From sequence record PZ445489.1: a stretch of 64,000 nt of DNA; one strand, 5' to 3'. Positions 4,465-23,635 of this stretch are shown piece by piece (position 1 is the first letter of the stretch; every line of letters begins with the position of its first letter). Below the pieces are notes generated by a model. The model worked only from the letters and a program-made list of their open reading frames with translations. It did no database searches and had not been told where the DNA came from. The position numbers and the translations under genes were made by a program. Source of the DNA: a phage.

Positions 4465-6339
4465 TTACTTAGCTCGAATATCCTGATGCTTCACTCTACC
4501 CATCACCTCGTGCTGTTTGCCAGGGTTAAATGGACGAGCACCCGGATTTCCAAGATACCCACAAACTCGACGAGTTACTTCAAGAGTTTCGGGGTCATGA
4601 TTACCACAGATAGGACACTTAAACCCATCTTCGGATGCTATTGTTTCACCTAAGAATCCGCATTTACCGCAAGAATCCACTGGAGTATTAATACCGAAGT
4701 AATGAACTTTACTAGCAGCATAATTAATAACCCATTCCAGTGCATCTGGGAATCGTTTCATATCCGGTAGTTCTACATAGGAAATGCACCCACCAGAAGC
4801 AATAGGCGTAAAGTTAGATTCATAATCAAATTTCACGTTAGGAGCAACTTTACGCTCTACATCAAGGTGGTGCGAGTTAGTGTAGTATCCTTTAGACAGA
4901 ATATCTTCATGCTCTGGGAAATATTCACGGTCTAAACGGCAAAACCTATCACATAGGGACTCTGACGGTGTAGCATACAGGCTATAACCTAACTTAGTCT
5001 CTTCCTTCTTCTGATCGACTCTATCTCGCATGTACTGCAATACACGCTGAACAAACTTGATGCAGGTCTCTGACATTGTGTCTACATCTTTGCCAAACAT
5101 GAACTGTAGCATTTCATGGCAACCAATATACCCTAGAGATACAGAAGCACGGTTATAGAAATGATCGAATACATATTCATCAGGCTCCAAGCGTAACCCA
5201 AAGGCTCCTGACATATAGAGGATGGGTGCAGCTTTAGCTTGGATGTATTTTAAGCGATCAACTCTCCACTCCAATGCTTTTAACGCTGTATCCACACGTA
5301 GCTCAAGCAAATCAAAGAATAGATCAATATTTCCTTCAGCTTCGATAGCAATTCTAGGCAAGTTTACAGAAACAACACCTAAGTTATTACGGCCAGCAGT
5401 TTCACCATCTTCTGCAGCAGCTAGGAATGAACGGCAGCCCATAGAAACTTTATAGTCTCCAGTAACTTCTACAACCTTGTCATAGCTGATATAATCTGGA
5501 TACATACGTTCAGCAGTACATTTCATAGCTAACTTCTTGATGTCATAATTAACATCTCCTGGTTTCATATTTACGCCATCGCGAAGTACAAATACCAGTT
5601 TCGGGAAGATAGCTGTACGTTTATTGATACCTAAACCATCCATGCGTACTTTCAGTATTGCTTTCTGTACTAGACGTGCTTCCCAGGAAGTTCCTAGACC
5701 AAAACCAAAGGTAATAAATGGACTCTGACCATTAGAGTTGAACATGGTATTGATTTCATATTCTAAACCCTGACAAGCGTCATAGACTTCTTTTTCAGTC
5801 ATCTCCGTAGCCATTACTGATGCTTTGGCTTCATCCTTAGTCCAACGTTTTGCAAACGCATGATTTTTGTCATAGGATTTACGAACATAAGGGGCTAATA
5901 CTTCATCAAGGCGATCTACAGAAGTACCACCGTACTGATGGGAGCTAACCTGAGTGATAATCTGAGCAGTAATAGCCGCCGCAGTAGTGATAGAGTTTGG
6001 AGTGCTAATTTCAGCATTACCAACCTTCATACCATTCTTCAACATATCTTCCAAAGCTACCAGACAACAGTTAGTCATGCCTAATGCAGCATAATCAGCA
6101 TCGTGGAAATGAATATCCCCAATCATATGAGCATTTCGAATCTGAATAGGCATTTCTTCTAGAATTAGATACTTACTCAATTCACCTGCAAGCATATCCC
6201 TTTGTGTAGGGAAACGTTCTGAGGGTTTATTGGCATTATTAAACAGCAGCTCTTCATCTGCTGACCCTTCGATAATCTCTTTGCAGTTTCTAATTAACGC
6301 CTGCATTTCTTTATACTTTAGTTCTTCATTACGATTCAT
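4465..6339 (-). CDS. nrdD: anaerobic ribonucleoside-triphosphate reductase (class III)
   Basis: 624 aa; C-terminal glycyl-radical motif RVCGYLG and Zn-ribbon CGKCG..CPICG. Confidence 0.9.
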   Translation of the reverse strand: MNRNEELKYKEMQALIRNCKEIIEGSADEELLFNNANKPSERFPTQRDMLAGELSKYLILEEMPIQIRNAHMIGDIHFHDADYAALGMTNCCLVALEDMLKNGMKVGNAEISTPNSITTAAAITAQIITQVSSHQYGGTSVDRLDEVLAPYVRKSYDKNHAFAKRWTKDEAKASVMATEMTEKEVYDACQGLEYEINTMFNSNGQSPFITFGFGLGTSWEARLVQKAILKVRMDGLGINKRTAIFPKLVFVLRDGVNMKPGDVNYDIKKLAMKCTAERMYPDYISYDKVVEVTGDYKVSMGCRSFLAAAEDGETAGRNNLGVVSVNLPRIAIEAEGNIDLFFDLLELRVDTALKALEWRVDRLKYIQAKAAPILYMSGAFGLRLEPDEYVFDHFYNRASVSLGYIGCHEMLQFMFGKDVDTMSETCIKFVQRVLQYMRDRVDQKKEETKLGYSLYATPSESLCDRFCRLDREYFPEHEDILSKGYYTNSHHLDVERKVAPNVKFDYESNFTPIASGGCISYVELPDMKRFPDALEWVINYAASKVHYFGINTPVDSCGKCGFLGETIASEDGFKCPICGNHDPETLEVTRRVCGYLGNPGARPFNPGKQHEVMGRVKHQDIRAK

Positions 6340-6426
6340 TATACTCTCCTTCTCTAACTAAGACTACTATTATAACTCATTCGAGGGCGGATGTCAACAA
6401 TATTTTACTATAAAGTTCTGTAACAT

Positions 6427-6480
6427 GATCTGAGTCAAAAAATTTTATTTGCCAATCTCTATTAAAAATTGTATAATCAC
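6427..6480 (+). promoter_or_regulatory. T5-type early promoter
   Basis: TTGCCA 6439-6444, 17-nt spacer, TATAAT 6462-6467. Confidence 0.6.
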
Positions 6481-6576
6481 GCACTCGTGCACGCGATATA
6501 AAATGATTATCTAGTATCACACATCTCACGTTAAAAGCAAGCAAATTTTTTATTTAAATGCAATATCATAGGCTTA

Positions 6577-6630
6577 TTTAAAATTGTAGTTGCTTTTTAC
6601 TGTATATATTGGTATAATATATTTGTAAGT
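6577..6630 (+). promoter_or_regulatory. T5-type early promoter
   Basis: TTGCTT 6589-6594, 17-nt spacer, TATAAT 6612-6617. Confidence 0.65.
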
Positions 6631-6691
6631 TGATAAACAAGATCTTTTTGTTGATCCTCTGTTAGCGAAGTACACTATAGGAGTGTTATTT

Positions 6692-7444
6692 ATGGGAAAA
6701 GCACGTCAAAAAAGAGAGAACCGCAATGGTTCAAGAAAGCGTGGCAACAAATATGAGAATAACGTAATTCAGGCTGATTTTTCTAATGATTACGCTAACC
6801 CAGTTGCTAAATCCCTAGTAGGTAAAAACCGCGAGCAAAAATCATATATCAATATGATCAAGAACAACACAGTGACTGTGGGTATCGGTGAGCCAGGTAC
6901 TGGTAAAACCTTTATTCCGTCCGTTCTTGCAGCTCAGGAACTAGTAGACATTCACTCAGATATTGAGCAAGTGATTCTCGTACGTCCTAATGAACCTCTA
7001 GGTAAGTCTCTTGGTATGCTTCCTGGTGATCTAGCGGAAAAGCTAGAGCCTTGGTTGGAGCCAATAGCTGATGGTATGAAATGGGCCATCGGCGATCATG
7101 CATATAAAGGATATGTCGAACGTCAGAAAATTAAATTTTTGGCTATCGAACATGCTCGTGGCAGAACTTTCAACAACTCCTATGTAATTGTCGACGAAGC
7201 TCAGAATATTTCCGTTGAGGCAATGATTTGTCTCCTAACTCGTGTAGGGCAAGACTGCCGTTTAATTATCTGCGGAGATATAGCTCAGAAAGACATTAAA
7301 GGTGACTCAGGTCTAGCACTCCTTCTGGAAGTCTATGAGAAATATGAAAATGCCCCATTCTCAATGATCGAATTGATTGATAACGTTCGTTCTGTTGAGT
7401 CTAAAGCATTCTATGACATTTTTAAAGACATGGGGAAGGTGTAA
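6692..7444 (+). CDS. phoH: PhoH-like ATPase
   Basis: Walker A GEPGTGKTF, Walker B VIVDEAQN; ATG 6692 after AGGAG (track start 6683 is GTG). Confidence 0.85.
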   Translation: MGKARQKRENRNGSRKRGNKYENNVIQADFSNDYANPVAKSLVGKNREQKSYINMIKNNTVTVGIGEPGTGKTFIPSVLAAQELVDIHSDIEQVILVRPNEPLGKSLGMLPGDLAEKLEPWLEPIADGMKWAIGDHAYKGYVERQKIKFLAIEHARGRTFNNSYVIVDEAQNISVEAMICLLTRVGQDCRLIICGDIAQKDIKGDSGLALLLEVYEKYENAPFSMIELIDNVRSVESKAFYDIFKDMGKV

Positions 7445-20157: not shown

Positions 20158-21105
20158 ATGTTTAATACTAAAAATATGAAAGAACTGACTTCTGAGCAGA
20201 AAGTAATTCGTACTATTAAACGTTGGGGTATTGGTGCTGTAGTTGGTTTAGCAGGCTTGATTCTAGCCTTTAATTCATATACTATTGTTTCTGATGGTAC
20301 GGTTAAAACCCAAACATTTCTGGGTAAAGTAGATCCTAACCCAGTATTACCAGGTTTCCATCTTGTAAACCCATTTGCATCTTTCGACACTTTTAGTACA
20401 AAAGATATTGCTGTAAAATTAGATAAACTTCAGGTTCCTAGCCAGGATAAGTTTAAATCCACTGTTGACCTGACTGTTATGTTGCAGTTTGATGGTTCTA
20501 AGGCACCAATTAACCGTATTAACGCAGGTACTCAGGATCAAGCGTTAGACAAATATGTAACTGAAAAATTACTGTCTACTATTCGTGAGTTTGGTAAGTC
20601 TGTACCTAAAGCACAAGATTTGTTTGATGCTAAAATTCAGGCTCAATTGCAAACTGCAATTCAACAGGAAGTTGAAGAGTATGCACGCCCATATGGTTAC
20701 ACAGTTAAGCAGGTATTCCTTCAGGATATTACTTTGCCACCGGTAATCATGGAACAGGTACAGAATACCAAAGTTCGTGAAGAACAGGTTAATGCTGCTA
20801 AAGCTGAATTAGCTCGTGTTGAACAGGAAGCACAGCAAAAAGTTAAACAAGCAGAAGCAGATCGTGAAGCTCGCAACAACCAAGCTATCGCTAATGAACG
20901 TGACGCAGATGCTAAACTGTACGCAGCTAAGAAAGAAGCTGAAGCTAACGCCGCACTGCAACGTACCATTACTCCTGAGATGATTCGTTGGAAACAACTG
21001 GAAGTCGAAATGATTCGTGCTCAGAAATATCAAGGTGGTGTACCACAGACTGTGGTAGGTACTGGCTACGATGGTCAAATGATCATGGATATGCGTAATA
21101 AATAA
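20158..21105 (+). CDS. SPFH/band-7 (prohibitin/HflC-like) membrane protein
   Basis: N-terminal TM helix then SPFH-like region and Ala/Gln/Glu-rich coiled coil. Confidence 0.7.
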   Translation: MFNTKNMKELTSEQKVIRTIKRWGIGAVVGLAGLILAFNSYTIVSDGTVKTQTFLGKVDPNPVLPGFHLVNPFASFDTFSTKDIAVKLDKLQVPSQDKFKSTVDLTVMLQFDGSKAPINRINAGTQDQALDKYVTEKLLSTIREFGKSVPKAQDLFDAKIQAQLQTAIQQEVEEYARPYGYTVKQVFLQDITLPPVIMEQVQNTKVREEQVNAAKAELARVEQEAQQKVKQAEADREARNNQAIANERDADAKLYAAKKEAEANAALQRTITPEMIRWKQLEVEMIRAQKYQGGVPQTVVGTGYDGQMIMDMRNK

Positions 21106-21127
21106 TATCCGCATGTAACATCTGAAG

Positions 21128-21170
21128 TAAGCCCTGCGTTCCCTGGAGAGCGCAGGGCTTTTCTTTTATC
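21128..21170. terminator. rho-independent terminator
   Basis: agccctgcg..cgcagggct stem followed by TTTTCTTTT. Confidence 0.6.
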
Positions 21171-21180
21171 TTAAATACAG

Positions 21181-21220
21181 AAAAGCCCCTAAGTCTTTCG
21201 ACTAGGGGCTTTATTGTTTG
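21181..21220. terminator. rho-independent terminator between convergent genes
   Basis: aaaagcccctag..ctaggggcttt stem with A/T runs on both sides. Confidence 0.6.
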
Positions 21221-21225
21221 GTTCT

Positions 21226-21420
21226 TCAGAACCACACTCTCGGTGTACAGCAACCACCCATACGGGAGGCCAATCTTGACTGAAAATCTACTCTAGGGGG
21301 CAGGATAAGAGTAGGCTTAAAGGCAAAGGGATTGAACGCCGGTATTTGTGTAAACATTGCTGGAGAGCAACAACGTGCTACAGGCATTGGGCAGCACGAA
21401 ACAGGTTTTCTGCAACACAT
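21226..21420 (-). CDS. Cys-rich small protein (64 aa)
   Basis: Strong RBS AAGGAG 5 nt before ATG; four CC pairs. Confidence 0.4.
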   Translation of the reverse strand: MCCRKPVSCCPMPVARCCSPAMFTQIPAFNPFAFKPTLILPPRVDFQSRLASRMGGCCTPRVWF

Positions 21421-21429
21421 AATTTCTCC

Positions 21430-21846
21430 TTAGGAGTTATTACCACCATTTTGAGCTTTTGCAACTTGGCTTTGGCAGAAGCTATTAAACTTACCCATAA
21501 GTGATACAAGCTGCTTCCCATCCTCTGTCTTTGCGAAGTCTTCGAAAAGGGCTAGTACTGCCTGTCCTTCCGCAGAAACCTGCGGTTGTTGGGTTTGCTG
21601 CTGAACTTGCTGCTGCGGCATCTGTTGTTGCATTTGTTGAGGCATTTGCGACTGCCCGCTCATTTGCTGCATCATTTGCATAGGACTCACACTTCCAGGG
21701 TTTTGCTGGAGTTGTTGTTGCATCTGTTGCGCTTCTGCTAAACGCTGTTGCAATTGTTGTAAGTAGGGGTTATCCAGACCCGGAATGGGCTGCTGGGAGC
21801 CCATACTTTGATTAAGTCCGTTATTTACAAAACCATATTTACTCAT
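21430..21846 (-). CDS. Gln-rich low-complexity protein (138 aa)
   Basis: ORF with poly-Q/M repeats and structured C-terminal segment. Confidence 0.5.
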   Translation of the reverse strand: MSKYGFVNNGLNQSMGSQQPIPGLDNPYLQQLQQRLAEAQQMQQQLQQNPGSVSPMQMMQQMSGQSQMPQQMQQQMPQQQVQQQTQQPQVSAEGQAVLALFEDFAKTEDGKQLVSLMGKFNSFCQSQVAKAQNGGNNS

Positions 21847-21867
21847 AATGGGCTCCTCCCCTTAATA

Positions 21868-22860
21868 TTAAGCCGGCAGTTTAGCCTGCAGACCAGCCAG
21901 AGTCTGAGTGATAGCACCAAGACTTACAGCGATTTGATTAATTACCTGACCGTTAGCACCGTTACCCGCAGCGATTGCTTCACGTAGGCGACATGCATCT
22001 AACTCATCCTGAATACGAGCAGTAGTTACACCAGCGATAGCAGTCTGAAGTTCACAGCAACATTCAGCGATCTGACGTTCCAGAGAGTTCTGGTTAGCAC
22101 ACATCTGAGCCTGAACAGCGGCAAACTGGTTATTAGTTTGTAAAGTCTGCTGGAAAGCGATCTGTGCAGAATCAAACTTATCTTGTGCACGAGCTATCTG
22201 ATTAGCTGCGAAAGATTGATCAATCTGGCGAGAAAGATCGAACTGACCCTGAATAACGTTGCGAGTTTCCTGACAGATCTGATTAGACAGATTAGCACCT
22301 GTACCATAGATCGTAGTTAGTACAGACTGAGTATCACGGCTCTGGTTTTGGGATGTCTGGCTAAACCCATTGTTAACTGCGCTTAAAACAGCTCCAGTAC
22401 CCTGGTTAGCTTCTGTACGAGTAGTGTTAATAGCTGCTAGAATACTAGCGGTATCTTGGTTCTGAAGTACTGCATCAACTGCGGTACCATCACCAACTAC
22501 ACCACGTCCACCGAATCCACCGAAACCACCGAATCCGCCTGTTAATAGAGCACCGATTAGGATAGCTCCGAATAGTCCCATACCTTCACCACCGAAAGCA
22601 CCTGCGTTTGCTGGGTAACCACCCAGTAGGCCAGGGAAGCCACTAGTAAATACGTTTACTGGTTCTTGCATTTTATGTTTTCCATATTTATGACAATGTT
22701 CATCGTCATCTTCTTCATCATCGTGTTCACGATGTTTTTCTTCGTAGGCTCTGACCTTCTCCCACTTTTTCTTATCTGATTCCTCGTGACGGTGCAGTTC
22801 TGCTGCAACGCTAGCGACGGTCTCAGGACTCTTAGCTACTTCTTCTGTCATTTTTGACAC
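21868..22860 (-). CDS. membrane protein with His/acidic N-terminus, Gly-zipper TM segment and Q/N/T-rich domain
   Basis: GLFGAILIGALLTGGFGGFGGFGG hydrophobic Gly-rich segment; ECCCELQ cluster; RBS GGAGG. Confidence 0.55.
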   Translation of the reverse strand: MSKMTEEVAKSPETVASVAAELHRHEESDKKKWEKVRAYEEKHREHDDEEDDDEHCHKYGKHKMQEPVNVFTSGFPGLLGGYPANAGAFGGEGMGLFGAILIGALLTGGFGGFGGFGGRGVVGDGTAVDAVLQNQDTASILAAINTTRTEANQGTGAVLSAVNNGFSQTSQNQSRDTQSVLTTIYGTGANLSNQICQETRNVIQGQFDLSRQIDQSFAANQIARAQDKFDSAQIAFQQTLQTNNQFAAVQAQMCANQNSLERQIAECCCELQTAIAGVTTARIQDELDACRLREAIAAGNGANGQVINQIAVSLGAITQTLAGLQAKLPA

Positions 22861-22912
22861 CTCCTAGTATATAGAAAATGTGTGTCTCTTTGATCACTCA
22901 TCCATAACATAT

Positions 22913-22942
22913 ACTTTACACTACCCCAGCGAAAATGTCAAG
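22913..22942 (-). promoter_or_regulatory. candidate sigma70 promoter for leftward operon
   Basis: Minus strand TTGACA (22936-22941), 16-nt spacer, TAAAGT (22914-22919); not the T5 early consensus. Confidence 0.3.
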
Positions 22943-23043
22943 GGGTCTTTAAAAATTGCCCCTGAATTTTTAGTGGGGTCACAAATTTTGGTCCTCACCA
23001 CTTATCTGCTATCCTTAAGTGCCCTATGATTTTCCTCTAAAAA

Positions 23044-23104
23044 GTTAAAAAATTTGATTGCTTGAATGCTAAATTCTCTGTATAATATATCTATAAATTT
23101 GAAA
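23044..23104 (+). promoter_or_regulatory. T5-type early promoter
   Basis: TTGCTT 23058-23063, 17-nt spacer, TATAAT 23081-23086. Confidence 0.65.
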
Positions 23105-23116
23105 GAGGAACCAAAT

Positions 23117-23635
23117 ATGAATGTTGATGAGCTAACACAGCACCTCTTATCTAGAGGATTTGATACAGATAAATATCATTGCTGGTTAAGTCCGGAAGGA
23201 TGGCTAACAGTCCCGTTGTATGACTTCTCTGGGATGTTGAGGGGCTATCAAACTTATAATCCTTCTGCTCCAAAAGGTCATGGTAAGTGCCCCTTTGAAG
23301 CTAAATACTTTACTTATTCTACTACCCAGTGTGTATGGGGACTAGAAACTCTCAATGGAGATGAAAAAGTAGTATTGATTGCTGAATCTGTATTTAAGGC
23401 AGTTGCGTTACATAATGCTGGTTATCCAGCCCTAGCAATGTTGGGTTCTTCTCCAGGAAAAGCGTTATTAAAGCAACTGAAATTACTACCTTTTAAATTG
23501 GTAGCTGTCGGAGATAATGATCCTGCGGGTGAAAAATTTGCTAGAAAATTAAACGGCTTTGTTTCTCCCGTAGATGTGGATGAGATGTCTACCGAAAACT
23601 TGAAAAATTTTCTTGCTATGAAGCTAAATTTCTAA
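23117..23635 (+). CDS. Toprim-domain-like protein (172 aa)
   Basis: VVLIAESVFKAVAL..LVAVGDNDPAGEKFARKL resembles Toprim acidic motifs; ATG 23117 after GAAAGAGG. Confidence 0.45.
   Translation: MNVDELTQHLLSRGFDTDKYHCWLSPEGWLTVPLYDFSGMLRGYQTYNPSAPKGHGKCPFEAKYFTYSTTQCVWGLETLNGDEKVVLIAESVFKAVALHNAGYPALAMLGSSPGKALLKQLKLLPFKLVAVGDNDPAGEKFARKLNGFVSPVDVDEMSTENLKNFLAMKLNF

What the first reader, a model, noticed from the sequence alone, without database searches (positions are those of the whole stretch)
21226..22860. Leftward three-gene module inside the rightward early region
Three minus-strand genes are flanked by bidirectional terminators (21128-21220) and a non-T5-type promoter candidate (22913-22942). 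They encode a 330-aa protein with an acidic His-rich N-terminus, a Gly-zipper hydrophobic segment and a Q/N/T-rich domain with an ECCCE cluster; a 138-aa poly-Q protein; and a 64-aa Cys-rich peptide with a strong RBS. Composition and orientation differ from all neighbours.
Basis: seen in the sequence. Interest (0 to 1): 0.6.

Follow-up and report, generated by a model that had tools for sequence, protein, structure and literature searches.

The report
Dispensable three-gene membrane cassette in T5-like phage
This is a real, self-contained three-gene operon, already annotated in phage T5 as the hypothetical genes T5.077-T5.079. It is an optional cassette of unknown function that encodes a membrane-anchored, cysteine-rich helical protein and two small partners, and it is shared with unrelated phages.

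Summary
The window is 99.9% identical to Escherichia phage SP15, a T5-like phage. The three minus-strand ORFs are the homologues of T5.077, T5.078 and T5.079. The T5 reference record already annotates them with promoter P12 and a bidirectional terminator.

Nothing in Pfam, NCBIfam, PADLOC, PDB sequences or fold libraries names a function. PHROGs files the two larger proteins under 'unknown function'.

What I add:
- **Optional.** The cassette lies inside the T5st0 deletion and is missing from phage Bas33. It is found in 222 phage records, against 446 for the neighbouring gene. A published knock-down screen scores all three genes 'Not Fit'.
- **One negative test.** In SP15, genes 1+2 were cloned as fragment 'F9' and were not among the fragments that neutralised retrons Eco2 or Eco7.
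- **Mobile as a unit.** The trio also occurs in distant ~110-kb phage contigs, in a lambdoid phage (antisense, between the Q gene and the lysis genes) and in Pseudomonas phage RSP.
- **Wide family.** Protein 1 belongs to an undescribed 'AECCCE' triple-cysteine family. Members occur in crAss-like phages, Seuratvirus, eiAU and one giant-virus-like contig.

Best reading: a moron-like accessory operon that builds a thiol- or metal-linked inner-membrane complex with a conditional role, probably in phage-phage or phage-host conflict. The function is inferred, not shown.

The parts
22913..22941 (-). Sigma-70 promoter, equivalent to T5 promoter P12: -35 TTGACA (22941-22936), 17-bp spacer, -10 TAAAGT (22918-22913)
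   Evidence: Consensus scan. Annotated as promoter P12 in NC_005859. Hexamers invariant and spacer variable in 18 distinct T5-like sequences.
22852..22906 (-). Conserved 5' untranslated leader ending in the Shine-Dalgarno AGGAGG (22865-22860)
   Evidence: Nearly invariant across T5-like phages. Sequence read directly. The transcription start is inferred, not mapped.
21868..22851 (-). Gene 1, 327 aa (T5.077 homologue, phrog_8119). Acidic/His-rich N-terminal helix, glycine-zipper hydrophobic segment (residues 90-115), then a roughly 200-residue alpha-helical rod with invariant C251 and C264-C265-C266 and a highly conserved C-terminus.
   Evidence: TM flank analysis. AlphaFold2 with 73 sequences: pLDDT 72, helix 173-324.
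21430..21846 (-). Gene 2, 138 aa (T5.078 homologue, phrog_7894). Q-rich protein with a conserved N-terminal helix (YLQQLQQRL) and a conserved C-terminal motif F.EFA.T(E/D)DGKQLV..GKF..FCQS. It has no hydrophobic segment.
   Evidence: Preceded by GGAGGAG (21853-21859 on the plus strand).
21226..21420 (-). Gene 3, 64 aa (T5.079 homologue). Starts MCC, has four CC pairs, and has a Pro/Phe-rich middle (IPAFNPFAF). It has no signal peptide and no lipobox.
   Evidence: The ORF is intact in the T5 record and all 19 IMG/VR T5-like loci; 12 of 24 variable columns fall at codon position 3. An equivalent MCC/MCGCC ORF follows gene 2 in L005, L006, L007/L008 and RSP.
21171..21212 (-). Intrinsic terminator of the operon: hairpin 21182-21212 followed by UUUUCUGUAUUU on the minus strand. 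On the plus strand it also reads as a terminator, so it is bidirectional.
   Evidence: RNA fold -23.2 kcal/mol, z = -5.5. The equivalent T5 site is annotated 'efficient bidirectional rho-independent transcription terminator'.
21129..21170 (+). Intrinsic terminator of the convergent SPFH/Band-7 gene. It is a boundary of the cassette, not part of it.
   Evidence: -26.2 kcal/mol, z = -5.2. It is retained in Bas33, which lacks the cassette.

Best explanation
This is the SP15 copy of the T5.077-T5.078-T5.079 operon. It is a self-contained unit running from a sigma-70 promoter to a terminator. It lies antisense to the surrounding early genes, inside the tRNA-rich 'anti-defence island'.

What it encodes:
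- Protein 1 is a single-pass inner-membrane protein. It has an acidic/His-rich N-tail, a glycine-zipper transmembrane helix and a long alpha-helical rod with an invariant Cys plus a Cys-Cys-Cys.
- Protein 2 is a soluble Q-rich protein with one invariant Cys.
- Protein 3 is a 64-residue proline-rich peptide with several CC pairs.

Because the three genes move together between unrelated phages, they most likely form one complex at the inner membrane. That complex would be held together by thiol chemistry, either disulfides or bound metal. Family-wide charge patterns suggest that the rod and both partners are cytoplasmic (N-out, C-in).

The cassette is not needed for lytic growth in laboratory hosts, and only about half of T5-like phages carry it. 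It therefore behaves like a moron, an accessory cassette with a conditional benefit. The most likely benefit lies in phage-phage or phage-host conflict: exclusion or defence against competitors, or counter-defence.

Shown: operon anatomy, conservation, mobility and dispensability. Inferred: membrane insertion and topology, complex formation, and the conflict role.
For: - **Identity and anatomy:**
- **No known domain:**; PHROGs lists 'unknown function'.
- **Trio conserved as a unit:** distant ~110-kb phage contigs, a lambdoid phage (antisense between the Q antiterminator and holin-lysozyme-Rz) and Pseudomonas phage RSP.
- **Dispensable:** the T5st0 deletion spans T5.068-T5.081. Bas33 has a clean deletion. 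The cassette is in 222 records against 446 for the SPFH neighbour. CRISPRi-ART scores all three genes 'Not Fit' (PMC11879866 supplement).
- **Genomic setting:** the cassette is next to Rad, the anti-retron gene (SP15 ORF75, T5.076), and to tRNA genes, in a region described as an anti-defence island.
- **Membrane segment:** an uncharged stretch of 19-26 residues (longer in a few members) is preceded by D/E, usually with no K/R in the 15 residues before it, and is followed directly by R. Many members have very short acidic N-tails.
- **Partners are probably cytoplasmic:** neither has a signal peptide (sequence).
- **Cysteine theme:** Cys residues are invariant in proteins 1 and 2, and Cys pairs recur in protein 3. 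crAss-like homologues carry a Cys/Gly-rich tail fused to protein 1, and Seuratvirus has a separate MCGNACC peptide.
- **Rod:** AlphaFold2 gives a 150-residue helix at pLDDT 80-95.
Against: - No experiment shows any phenotype, so the conflict role rests on context alone.
- Genes 1+2 of SP15 (fragment F9, which omits gene 3) were not among the fragments that rescued deletion phages from retron Eco2 or Eco7 (PMC11555353; primers, text).
- PADLOC finds nothing.
- No prophage copy was found in 185,579 species-representative genomes or in complete E. coli genomes. Expression from a prophage therefore rests on a single lambdoid lineage (two near-identical contigs).
- Topology is ambiguous for the T5-type protein. 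Its N-tail, about 89 residues before the hydrophobic segment, carries many Lys/Arg.
- Known anti-defence proteins are usually small and soluble, not three-part membrane complexes.
- In several other phages the family lies near lysis genes or at the end of the tail genes.
Confidence: 0.45

Rival explanations
1. Envelope or lysis accessory. Protein 1 would span the periplasm as a helical, disulfide-linked rod, like an i-spanin or a lysis-timing factor, and the proline-rich small peptide would be its partner.
For: - Relatives sit beside lysis genes. In the lambdoid contigs the cassette is next to holin-lysozyme-Rz. In crAss-like cr4_1 and cr52_1 the homologue is near holin, endolysin or a LysB-like gene. 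In L010 it is near an M15 peptidase.
- The architecture (TM segment, long helix, conserved Cys, small Pro-rich partner) recalls Rz/Rz1.
- A 150-residue helix is about 22 nm long, similar to the periplasmic width (width from general knowledge).
Against: - T5 already has Rz-like spanins, T5.044 and T5.045, and the lambdoid relative has its own Phage_lysis/Rz gene.
- Gene 3 has no signal peptide or lipobox, and gene 2 has none either.
- The family-wide charge bias predicts that the rod is cytoplasmic.
- The operon is driven by an early-region sigma-70 promoter, 16-18 kb from the T5 holin/endolysin genes.
- Knock-down has no fitness effect, and T5st0 lyses normally (general knowledge).
- There is no Pfam lysis hit.
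Confidence: 0.12
2. Metal or redox device. The His-rich/acidic tail, the CCC helix and the CC-pair peptide would bind thiophilic or divalent metals at the membrane. The complex would then sequester, sense or deliver a metal, or act as a redox switch.
For: - His-rich tracts recur: HHYHHHHHEH in some T5-likes, and in distant members P0038 and P0039.
- In eiAU and Seuratvirus a separate His-rich protein is encoded next to the family member.
- Cys clusters are invariant.
- Engineered triple-cysteine motifs are used to bind main-group metals (paper titles and abstracts listed).
Against: - The His-rich tract is absent from many relatives that are otherwise well conserved (P0020-P0026).
- There is no similarity to any known metal-binding family.
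- This is a chemistry, not a biological role, and it is compatible with the main explanation.
Confidence: 0.1
3. Only a two-gene operon. The 64-codon ORF would not be translated, and its conservation would reflect RNA or DNA constraints in the 3' region before the terminator.
For: - SP15, VAH1 and many other records do not annotate it.
- It matches no PHROG.
- Its composition is odd (Cys/Pro/Phe/Ser/Arg-rich).
- Only 12 of 24 variable columns fall at codon position 3, a modest bias.
- Between the two lambdoid contigs, 3 of 6 differences change the amino acid.
Against: - An ORF of 60-69 codons starting MCC or MCGCC directly follows gene 2 in five divergent lineages: T5-like, L005, L006, lambdoid and RSP. 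All share CC pairs and an 'NPF'-like core, although the DNA has diverged.
- A similar MCGNACC peptide lies in the Seuratvirus block.
- It has a strong Shine-Dalgarno sequence.
- A 64-codon open frame arises by chance about 5% of the time per frame, so five lineages are very unlikely to share one by chance (my estimate).
- It is annotated as T5.079 in the reference record.
Confidence: 0.1
4. Virion-associated fibre or spike, as some crAss-like homologues are labelled ('outer capsid protein/viral fiber', 'spike protein/glycoprotein').
For: - Those labels appear in crAss-like genome records.
- In eiAU, Seuratvirus and several metagenomic contigs the family member lies just after the tail genes.
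- The protein is predicted to be a long helical rod.
Against: - T5st0 lacks the cassette, and Bas33 lacks it too; both are viable phages.
- The cassette is in the early region with an early-type promoter.
- The labels look like generic coiled-coil matches. My fold searches gave nothing better than E = 2.
Confidence: 0.03

Closest known systems
Phage T5 genes T5.077, T5.078 and T5.079 with promoter P12 and the bidirectional terminator (NC_005859 37954-39720)
   Same: Orthologous locus: same three genes, order, promoter, terminator and neighbours (the SPFH gene T5.080 and the Toprim/Rad gene T5.076). DNA identity is about 90% or more.
   Different: Nothing essential differs. SP15 annotation omits the 64-aa ORF. 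T5.077 is 321 aa against 327 aa here, because the acidic/His tract varies in length.
Phage 'morons' and early exclusion genes that encode envelope proteins, such as T5 llp, HK97 gp15, lambda bor and phi80/N15 cor (recalled from general knowledge)
   Same: An autonomous promoter-to-terminator unit, oriented independently of its neighbours. Presence varies among close relatives. It is not needed for lytic growth and is predicted to act at the envelope. In the lambdoid relative it sits antisense in the late operon.
   Different: There is no sequence similarity to any of them. The cassette has three co-inherited genes rather than one. No exclusion phenotype has been tested, and no prophage copy was found in reference genomes.
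Two-component spanins Rz/Rz1
   Same: A membrane-anchored helical protein with conserved cysteines, plus a small proline-rich partner encoded beside it. Some relatives lie next to lysis cassettes.
   Different: The small partner has no lipoprotein signal. The predicted topology is reversed. The carrier phages already encode Rz-like proteins. The protein is about twice as long as Rz. The genes are not in the T5 lysis cassette.
Lambda RexA/RexB-type membrane-plus-cytoplasmic-partner exclusion systems (analogy only, from general knowledge)
   Same: A dispensable, phage-borne pair or trio that combines an inner-membrane component with cytoplasmic partners.
   Different: No homology. RexB is polytopic. 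No abortive-infection phenotype is known here, and PADLOC is negative.
Uncharacterised phage families phrog_16490 and phrog_9288 (crAss-like phages, eiAU, Seuratvirus and others)
   Same: They share the glycine-zipper segment and the AECCCE helix. Profile-profile probability is 99.0-99.2%, and there are cross-hits in PHROGs.
   Different: Partner genes and genomic positions differ. crAss-like members carry a fused Cys/Gly/Tyr-rich tail instead of a separate peptide. All are of unknown function.

Membership tests
T5.077 / phrog_8119 family (protein 1) | Full-length sequence match to the family profile | tested here: met
   E = 4.2e-203 over residues 4-330, against profile positions 1-332 of 332. 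Identity to close cluster representatives is 96-97%.
T5.078 / phrog_7894 family (protein 2) | Full-length sequence match to the family profile | tested here: met
   E = 2.7e-80, residues 1-138 against profile positions 1-139. 127 homologous clusters, all unnamed or 'hypothetical'.
Moron-like accessory transcription unit | Own promoter and own terminator flanking the genes | tested here: met
   Conserved TTGACA, 17 bases, TAAAGT. Terminator hairpin with z = -5.5. Both are annotated in T5. Promoter activity was not measured here.
Moron-like accessory transcription unit | Present in some close relatives and absent from others; dispensable | tested here: met
   222 records against 446. Clean deletion in Bas33. 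Inside the T5st0 deletion. CRISPRi-ART 'Not Fit'.
Moron-like accessory transcription unit | Found in unrelated phages (horizontal spread) | tested here: met
   The same trio occurs in a lambdoid phage and in Pseudomonas phage RSP.
Moron-like accessory transcription unit | Expressed independently of the lytic programme, or from the prophage | not testable with these tools
   Only orientation is available: the cassette is antisense to the late operon in the lambdoid relative.
Two-component spanin (Rz/Rz1) | The small partner is an outer-membrane lipoprotein with a signal peptide and lipobox | tested here: not met
   The gene 3 product starts MCCRKPVSCCPMPVARCC. It has no hydrophobic h-region and no L-x-x-C lipobox.
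Two-component spanin (Rz/Rz1) | The large partner is N-in with a periplasmic coiled coil; match to Pfam Phage_lysis; located in the lysis cassette | tested here: not met
   No Pfam hit. The charge bias predicts N-out/C-in. T5 spanins are T5.044 and T5.045, elsewhere in the genome. Topology itself is a prediction.
Known anti-phage defence systems (PADLOC-DB) | Match to any defence-system protein model | tested here: not met
   No family at E <= 1 for any of the three proteins.
Anti-retron factors of the T5/SP15 tRNA-rich region | Rescues deletion phages from retron Eco2 or Eco7 when expressed in trans | tested here: not met
   This comes from the literature, not from my own test. F9 equals genes 1+2 (primers). 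Only F6 and F8 are reported to rescue. Gene 3 was not in F9, so the result is incomplete.
Superinfection-exclusion proteins (Imm, Sp, SieA, Llp, Cor, gp15) | Blocks entry of a second phage when expressed | not testable with these tools
   No sequence family in Pfam, NCBIfam or PHROGs links them. The phenotype needs an experiment.
'AECCCE' triple-cysteine helical domain superfamily (undescribed; defined here) | Conserved block FAA..Q..C.NQNAL..QIAECCCE....I......R..DEL...RL in a long helix | tested here: met
   90 of the 110 related proteins checked (the hits) carry CCC in this context. hhalign gives 99.2% (E = 2.6e-19) and 99.0% (E = 5.6e-18). No Pfam model covers it.

The most novel reading that the evidence does not exclude
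The invariant AECCCE helix marks a previously undescribed viral protein domain. It occurs in T5-like, lambdoid, Pseudomonas, Seuratvirus/eiAU and crAss-like phages, and on at least one giant-virus-like contig. In this reading, the domain, a glycine-zipper anchor and dedicated CC-pair peptides together build a thiol- or metal-crosslinked, membrane-attached scaffold. That would be a new kind of viral machine. The T5-type trio would be its most tractable form, because it is dispensable and sits in model phages.
Probability: 0.2. Interest if true: 0.7.

Novelty: new member of a known kind. Interest (0 to 1): 0.4.

Why it matters
T5-like phages are model systems and are used for biocontrol and therapy. 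About half of them carry this cassette, and nobody knows what it does.

It lies in the island that holds Rad and the tRNA genes, which counter bacterial defences. It is therefore a reasonable candidate for a trait affecting host range or competition between phages.

The AECCCE family to which its main protein belongs reaches abundant gut crAss-like phages and has no Pfam model. A phenotype found in T5 or SP15, where clean deletions already exist, would annotate a sizeable piece of viral 'dark matter'.

As it stands, the locus is an already annotated set of hypothetical genes, and no long-standing question hinges on it.

Tried and rejected
- **Domain and sequence searches.** Pfam, NCBIfam, PADLOC and PDB-sequence searches of all three proteins gave only noise.
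- **First structure model.** AlphaFold2 with 16 sequences gave pLDDT 48 and was unusable.
- **Second structure model.** With 73 sequences pLDDT rose to 72, but the model is an extended helix. Foldseek against PDB and BFVD gave nothing below E = 2, only generic coiled coils such as vimentin.
- **Heptad analysis.** Hydrophobic periodicity peaks near 3.6 residues, not 3.5, so I do not claim a canonical coiled coil.
- **Prophage search.** Two scans of species-representative bacterial genomes and one of complete E. coli genomes found no copy. The lambdoid contig matches no deposited phage.
- **Literature.** Searches for T5.077-079, the PHROG numbers, the CCC motif and glycine-zipper phage proteins found no functional study.
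- **Bas33 data.** The Bas33 RNA-seq and proteome paper cannot help, because Bas33 lacks the cassette.
- **Toxicity screen.** The T5 toxic-gene paper reports only three toxic genes, T5.008, T5.011 and T5.015, and never mentions T5.07x genes.
- **Read-through fusion of genes 2 and 3.** In T5-likes they are in the same frame, 3 codons apart. I rejected this as a conserved feature because the frames differ in L006.
- **High GC as proof of recent transfer.** Rejected, because the cassette is slightly GC-richer than its flanks in every lineage.
- **Names from clusters.** Cluster look-ups and a third homology search returned only 'hypothetical protein'.
Full report
**What is there.** The window is a T5-like phage. 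The region 21100-23000 is 99.9% identical to Escherichia phage SP15 and 83-99% identical to more than 200 other T5-like records. The three minus-strand ORFs exist as described.

The 330-codon reading starts at a GTG that lies inside the Shine-Dalgarno sequence AGGAGG. The real start is the ATG at 22851, giving 327 aa, as SP15, VAH1 and T5 annotate it. Each gene has its own strong ribosome-binding site. The gaps between genes are 21 and 9 bases. No minus-strand terminator or promoter was predicted inside the unit.

In the T5 reference genome the locus is T5.077 (321 aa), T5.078 (138 aa) and T5.079 (64 aa). It is transcribed from the annotated promoter P12 and ends at an 'efficient bidirectional rho-independent transcription terminator'. 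All its neighbours lie on the other strand.

**Signals.** The only sigma-70-like site in the region is TTGACA, 17 bases, TAAAGT at 22941-22913. In 18 distinct upstream sequences from T5-like phages both hexamers are invariant and the spacer varies, which is the pattern expected of a working promoter. The leader of about 55 nt is almost invariant.

Downstream there are two hairpins. The first, at 21129-21160 with a T-run, ends the convergent SPFH gene. The second, at 21182-21212, is followed by U-runs on both strands. The cassette has 46.4% GC against 38.4% for its flanks. The same small excess appears in every lineage that carries it, so it probably reflects the Gly/Ala/Gln-rich proteins rather than recent import.

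**The proteins.** None matches Pfam, NCBIfam, PADLOC or any solved structure by sequence. PHROGs places proteins 1 and 2 in phrog_8119 and phrog_7894, both 'unknown function', and does not place protein 3.

Protein 1 has these features:
- A confidently predicted N-terminal helix (residues 12-41, pLDDT 92-97).
- An acidic/His-rich tract of variable length.
- The motif M-Q-E-P-V-N-V-F-T.
- An uncharged Gly-rich segment of 26 residues.
- About 200 helical residues with invariant C251 and C264-266, and a nearly invariant C-terminus, NGQVINQIAVSLGAITQTLA.

With a 73-sequence alignment AlphaFold2 gives one helix from 173 to 324 at pLDDT 80-95. It has no significant structural neighbour.

Protein 2 is 28% glutamine. 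It has a conserved N-terminal helix and a conserved C-terminal motif that contains its only cysteine. Protein 3 starts MCC, has four CC pairs and is proline-rich. It has no signal sequence.

**Is the 64-codon ORF real?** It is intact in the T5 record and in all 19 T5-like loci fetched from IMG/VR. Those sequences fall into 13 DNA variants, and 12 of their 24 variable columns are at third codon positions.

More tellingly, an ORF of 60-69 codons that begins MCC or MCGCC directly follows the gene 2 homologue in four other lineages: two distant ~110-kb phage contigs, a lambdoid phage and Pseudomonas phage RSP. All carry further CC pairs and an (I/V)P..NPF.F-like core. In these lineages protein 1 is only 36-47% identical to the SP15 protein. 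I take the ORF as coding with about 90% confidence.

**It is optional.**
- The deposited genome of the T5st0 deletion mutant is 8.5 kb shorter than wild type. Its recombination site joins T5.068 to T5.081, which removes T5.077-079.
- Phage Bas33 (HildyBeyeler) lacks the cassette. Its SPFH gene is followed after 288 bases by the Toprim gene. Alignment shows that the loss runs from just after the first hairpin to just upstream of the gene 1 ribosome-binding site, so a promoter remnant is left behind.
- The neighbouring SPFH gene is found in 446 phage records and the cassette in 222. A protein-level search finds 223.
- In the genome-wide CRISPRi-ART knock-down of T5, all three genes are 'Not Fit' and annotated 'unknown function' (PMC11879866 supplement).

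**It has been handled experimentally once, without being noticed.** Azam and colleagues studied SP15 itself. They describe an ~8-kb tRNA-rich region, called an anti-defence island in the preprint, that is lost spontaneously in SP15m and in a T5 stock. They cloned the SP15 region as nine fragments.

Their F9 primers start at the ATG of gene 1 and end at the stop of gene 2. F9 is therefore this cassette without the 64-aa ORF. Only F6 (tRNA-Tyr) and F8 are reported to rescue deletion phages from retrons Eco2 and Eco7, so F9 was evidently negative. F8 carries ORF75, named 'Rad', which is the Toprim gene at 23066-23635 in this window.

The preprint also notes that the T5 deletion strain plates less well on AVAST type 2, and the responsible gene is not identified. 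The cassette is one of about a dozen candidates, so this is only a lead.

**It is mobile and belongs to a large unnamed family.** The trio is a unit in four kinds of phage:
- T5-like phages.
- Distant ~110-kb phage contigs.
- A lambdoid phage. There it lies between the Q antiterminator/NinG genes and holin-lysozyme-Rz, on the opposite strand, so late transcription must cross it antisense.
- Pseudomonas phage RSP (RSP_0092, RSP_091 and RSP_0090).

An exhaustive profile search found only five strong 50%-identity clusters and about 90 weaker hits. Among the 110 related proteins I checked (hits), 90 carry CCC in the motif (K/Q)N..L..Q(L/I)AECCCE(L/I)K..I......R(L/I).D. Many also have the Gly-zipper segment.

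Profile-profile comparison confirms homology: 99.2% with E = 2.6e-19, and 99.0% with E = 5.6e-18 over 201 columns that include the hydrophobic segment. Members occur in:
- crAss-like phages, where they are labelled 'spike' or 'viral fiber' and lie near lysis genes.
- A Bacteroides phage.
- Edwardsiella phage eiAU and Seuratvirus STP-SP5, just after the tail genes.
- One contig whose other genes (XRN exonuclease, SWIB, GT41, SNF2, DUF5764) look like a giant virus.

No Pfam model covers the motif, and no source gives a name.

Two observations tie the cysteine-rich peptide to protein 1. First, crAss-like members end in a fused Cys/Gly/Tyr-rich tail such as ...GCGCGY. Second, the Seuratvirus block contains a separate 69-aa MCGNACC... 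peptide.

**How it probably works.** Shown: an autonomous operon, three co-inherited products, dispensability and horizontal spread.

Inferred: protein 1 is anchored in the inner membrane. Across the family the hydrophobic segment is preceded by D/E, usually with no Lys/Arg in the previous 15 residues, and is followed directly by Arg. Many members have N-tails of only 5-15 acidic residues. By the positive-inside rule this predicts N-out/C-in, with the helical rod in the cytoplasm.

That topology fits the two partners, which lack signal peptides. The cysteines would then be reduced and free to bind metal, or would be oxidised only on some trigger. For the T5-type protein, with its N-tail of about 89 charged residues, the topology is less certain.

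The recurring His-rich tracts and the Cys clusters suggest metal or thiol chemistry as the glue. The biological role is inferred from context only: an accessory cassette in an anti-defence island of a virulent phage, and an antisense, moron-like position in a temperate one. I therefore favour a conditional role in conflict, either exclusion or defence against competing phages, or counter-defence. I put about 0.45 on the overall picture and much less on any single sub-role.

**Rivals.**
- A spanin-like or lysis-timing role is suggested by the neighbours in other phages and by the TM-rod-Cys plus Pro-rich-peptide architecture. Against it are the missing lipoprotein signal, the predicted topology, the resident Rz genes and the lack of a fitness effect.
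- A virion-fibre role is excluded for T5 by T5st0 and Bas33.
- A purely metal-handling role is possible, but it is a chemistry rather than a biology.

**Verdict.** The locus is already annotated and already known to be deletable, and its function is unknown.

The new information is that the cassette is a mobile three-gene unit, that it carries an undescribed and widely spread triple-cysteine domain, and that published constructs tested only two of its three genes. Interest is moderate: a good, tractable lead into viral dark matter, but not yet a surprise to a T5 specialist.

Noticed in passing
window 23066-23635 (+): The 189-aa Toprim protein next to the cassette is SP15 ORF75 (T5.076). It is published as 'Rad', a factor that neutralises retrons Eco2, Eco7 and Eco4. 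RefSeq still calls it 'DNA primase'.
   Followed up: partly
window 20158-21105 (+): The convergent neighbour is an SPFH/Band-7 protein (Pfam E = 2e-17) with an N-terminal hydrophobic segment. It is labelled 'lipoprotein' in RefSeq and PHROGs. It occurs in about twice as many T5-like records as the cassette.
   Followed up: partly
window 22852-22990 (-): The P12 leader of about 55 nt is almost invariant across T5-likes. CCCC...GGGG inverted repeats lie upstream of the -35 hexamer and overlap it. This may be an operator or an RNA element that controls the cassette.
   Followed up: no
L037 (Bas33, MZ501074) 6100-6390: Bas33 lacks the three genes and the second terminator but keeps a diverged remnant of the promoter region. 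This looks like a deletion of the cassette rather than an empty site that was never filled.
   Followed up: partly
L045 7001-7792 (JGI contig Ga0654492_0000048): A soluble AECCCE-motif protein lies on a contig with XRN exonuclease, SWIB, a GT41-like glycosyltransferase, an SNF2 helicase and DUF5764. That gene set looks like a giant virus, so the domain may not be restricted to phages.
   Followed up: partly
L043 (Salmonella phage STP-SP5) 3068-5114; L042 (eiAU) 4839-6693: In Seuratvirus and eiAU the CCC protein follows the tail genes. After it come a His-rich protein of about 121 aa with a MazG-like C-terminus, a ~175-aa protein and a ~90-aa protein. STP-SP5 also has a 69-aa MCGNACC... peptide that resembles gene 3.
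   Followed up: partly
L033, L038, L039 (crAss-like and Bacteroides phages): crAss-like CCC proteins end in Cys/Gly/Tyr-rich tails (GCGCGY, CGCGC). The next gene starts with an F-N-P-Y-P-F-like motif that recalls the NPFAF core of gene 3. Several of these ORFs contain in-frame stops, consistent with stop-codon reassignment.
   Followed up: no
window 21420-21432: In T5-likes the stop codon of gene 2 (TAA) and the ATG of gene 3 are in the same frame, three codons apart. Read-through would fuse the two proteins. The frames differ in the distant relative L006, so this is probably incidental.
   Followed up: partly
GenBank records of relatives: Several records carry unsupported names for these genes. 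Gene 2 homologues are called 'cAMP-dependent protein kinase catalytic subunit', and the RSP gene 3 homologue is called 'alpha/beta hydrolase like protein'.
   Followed up: no
L006 5573-6145 (-): In one distant ~110-kb relative the convergent neighbour is not the SPFH protein. It is a 190-aa protein with an N-terminal transmembrane segment that looks LemA-like by eye, so this is again a membrane protein.
   Followed up: no
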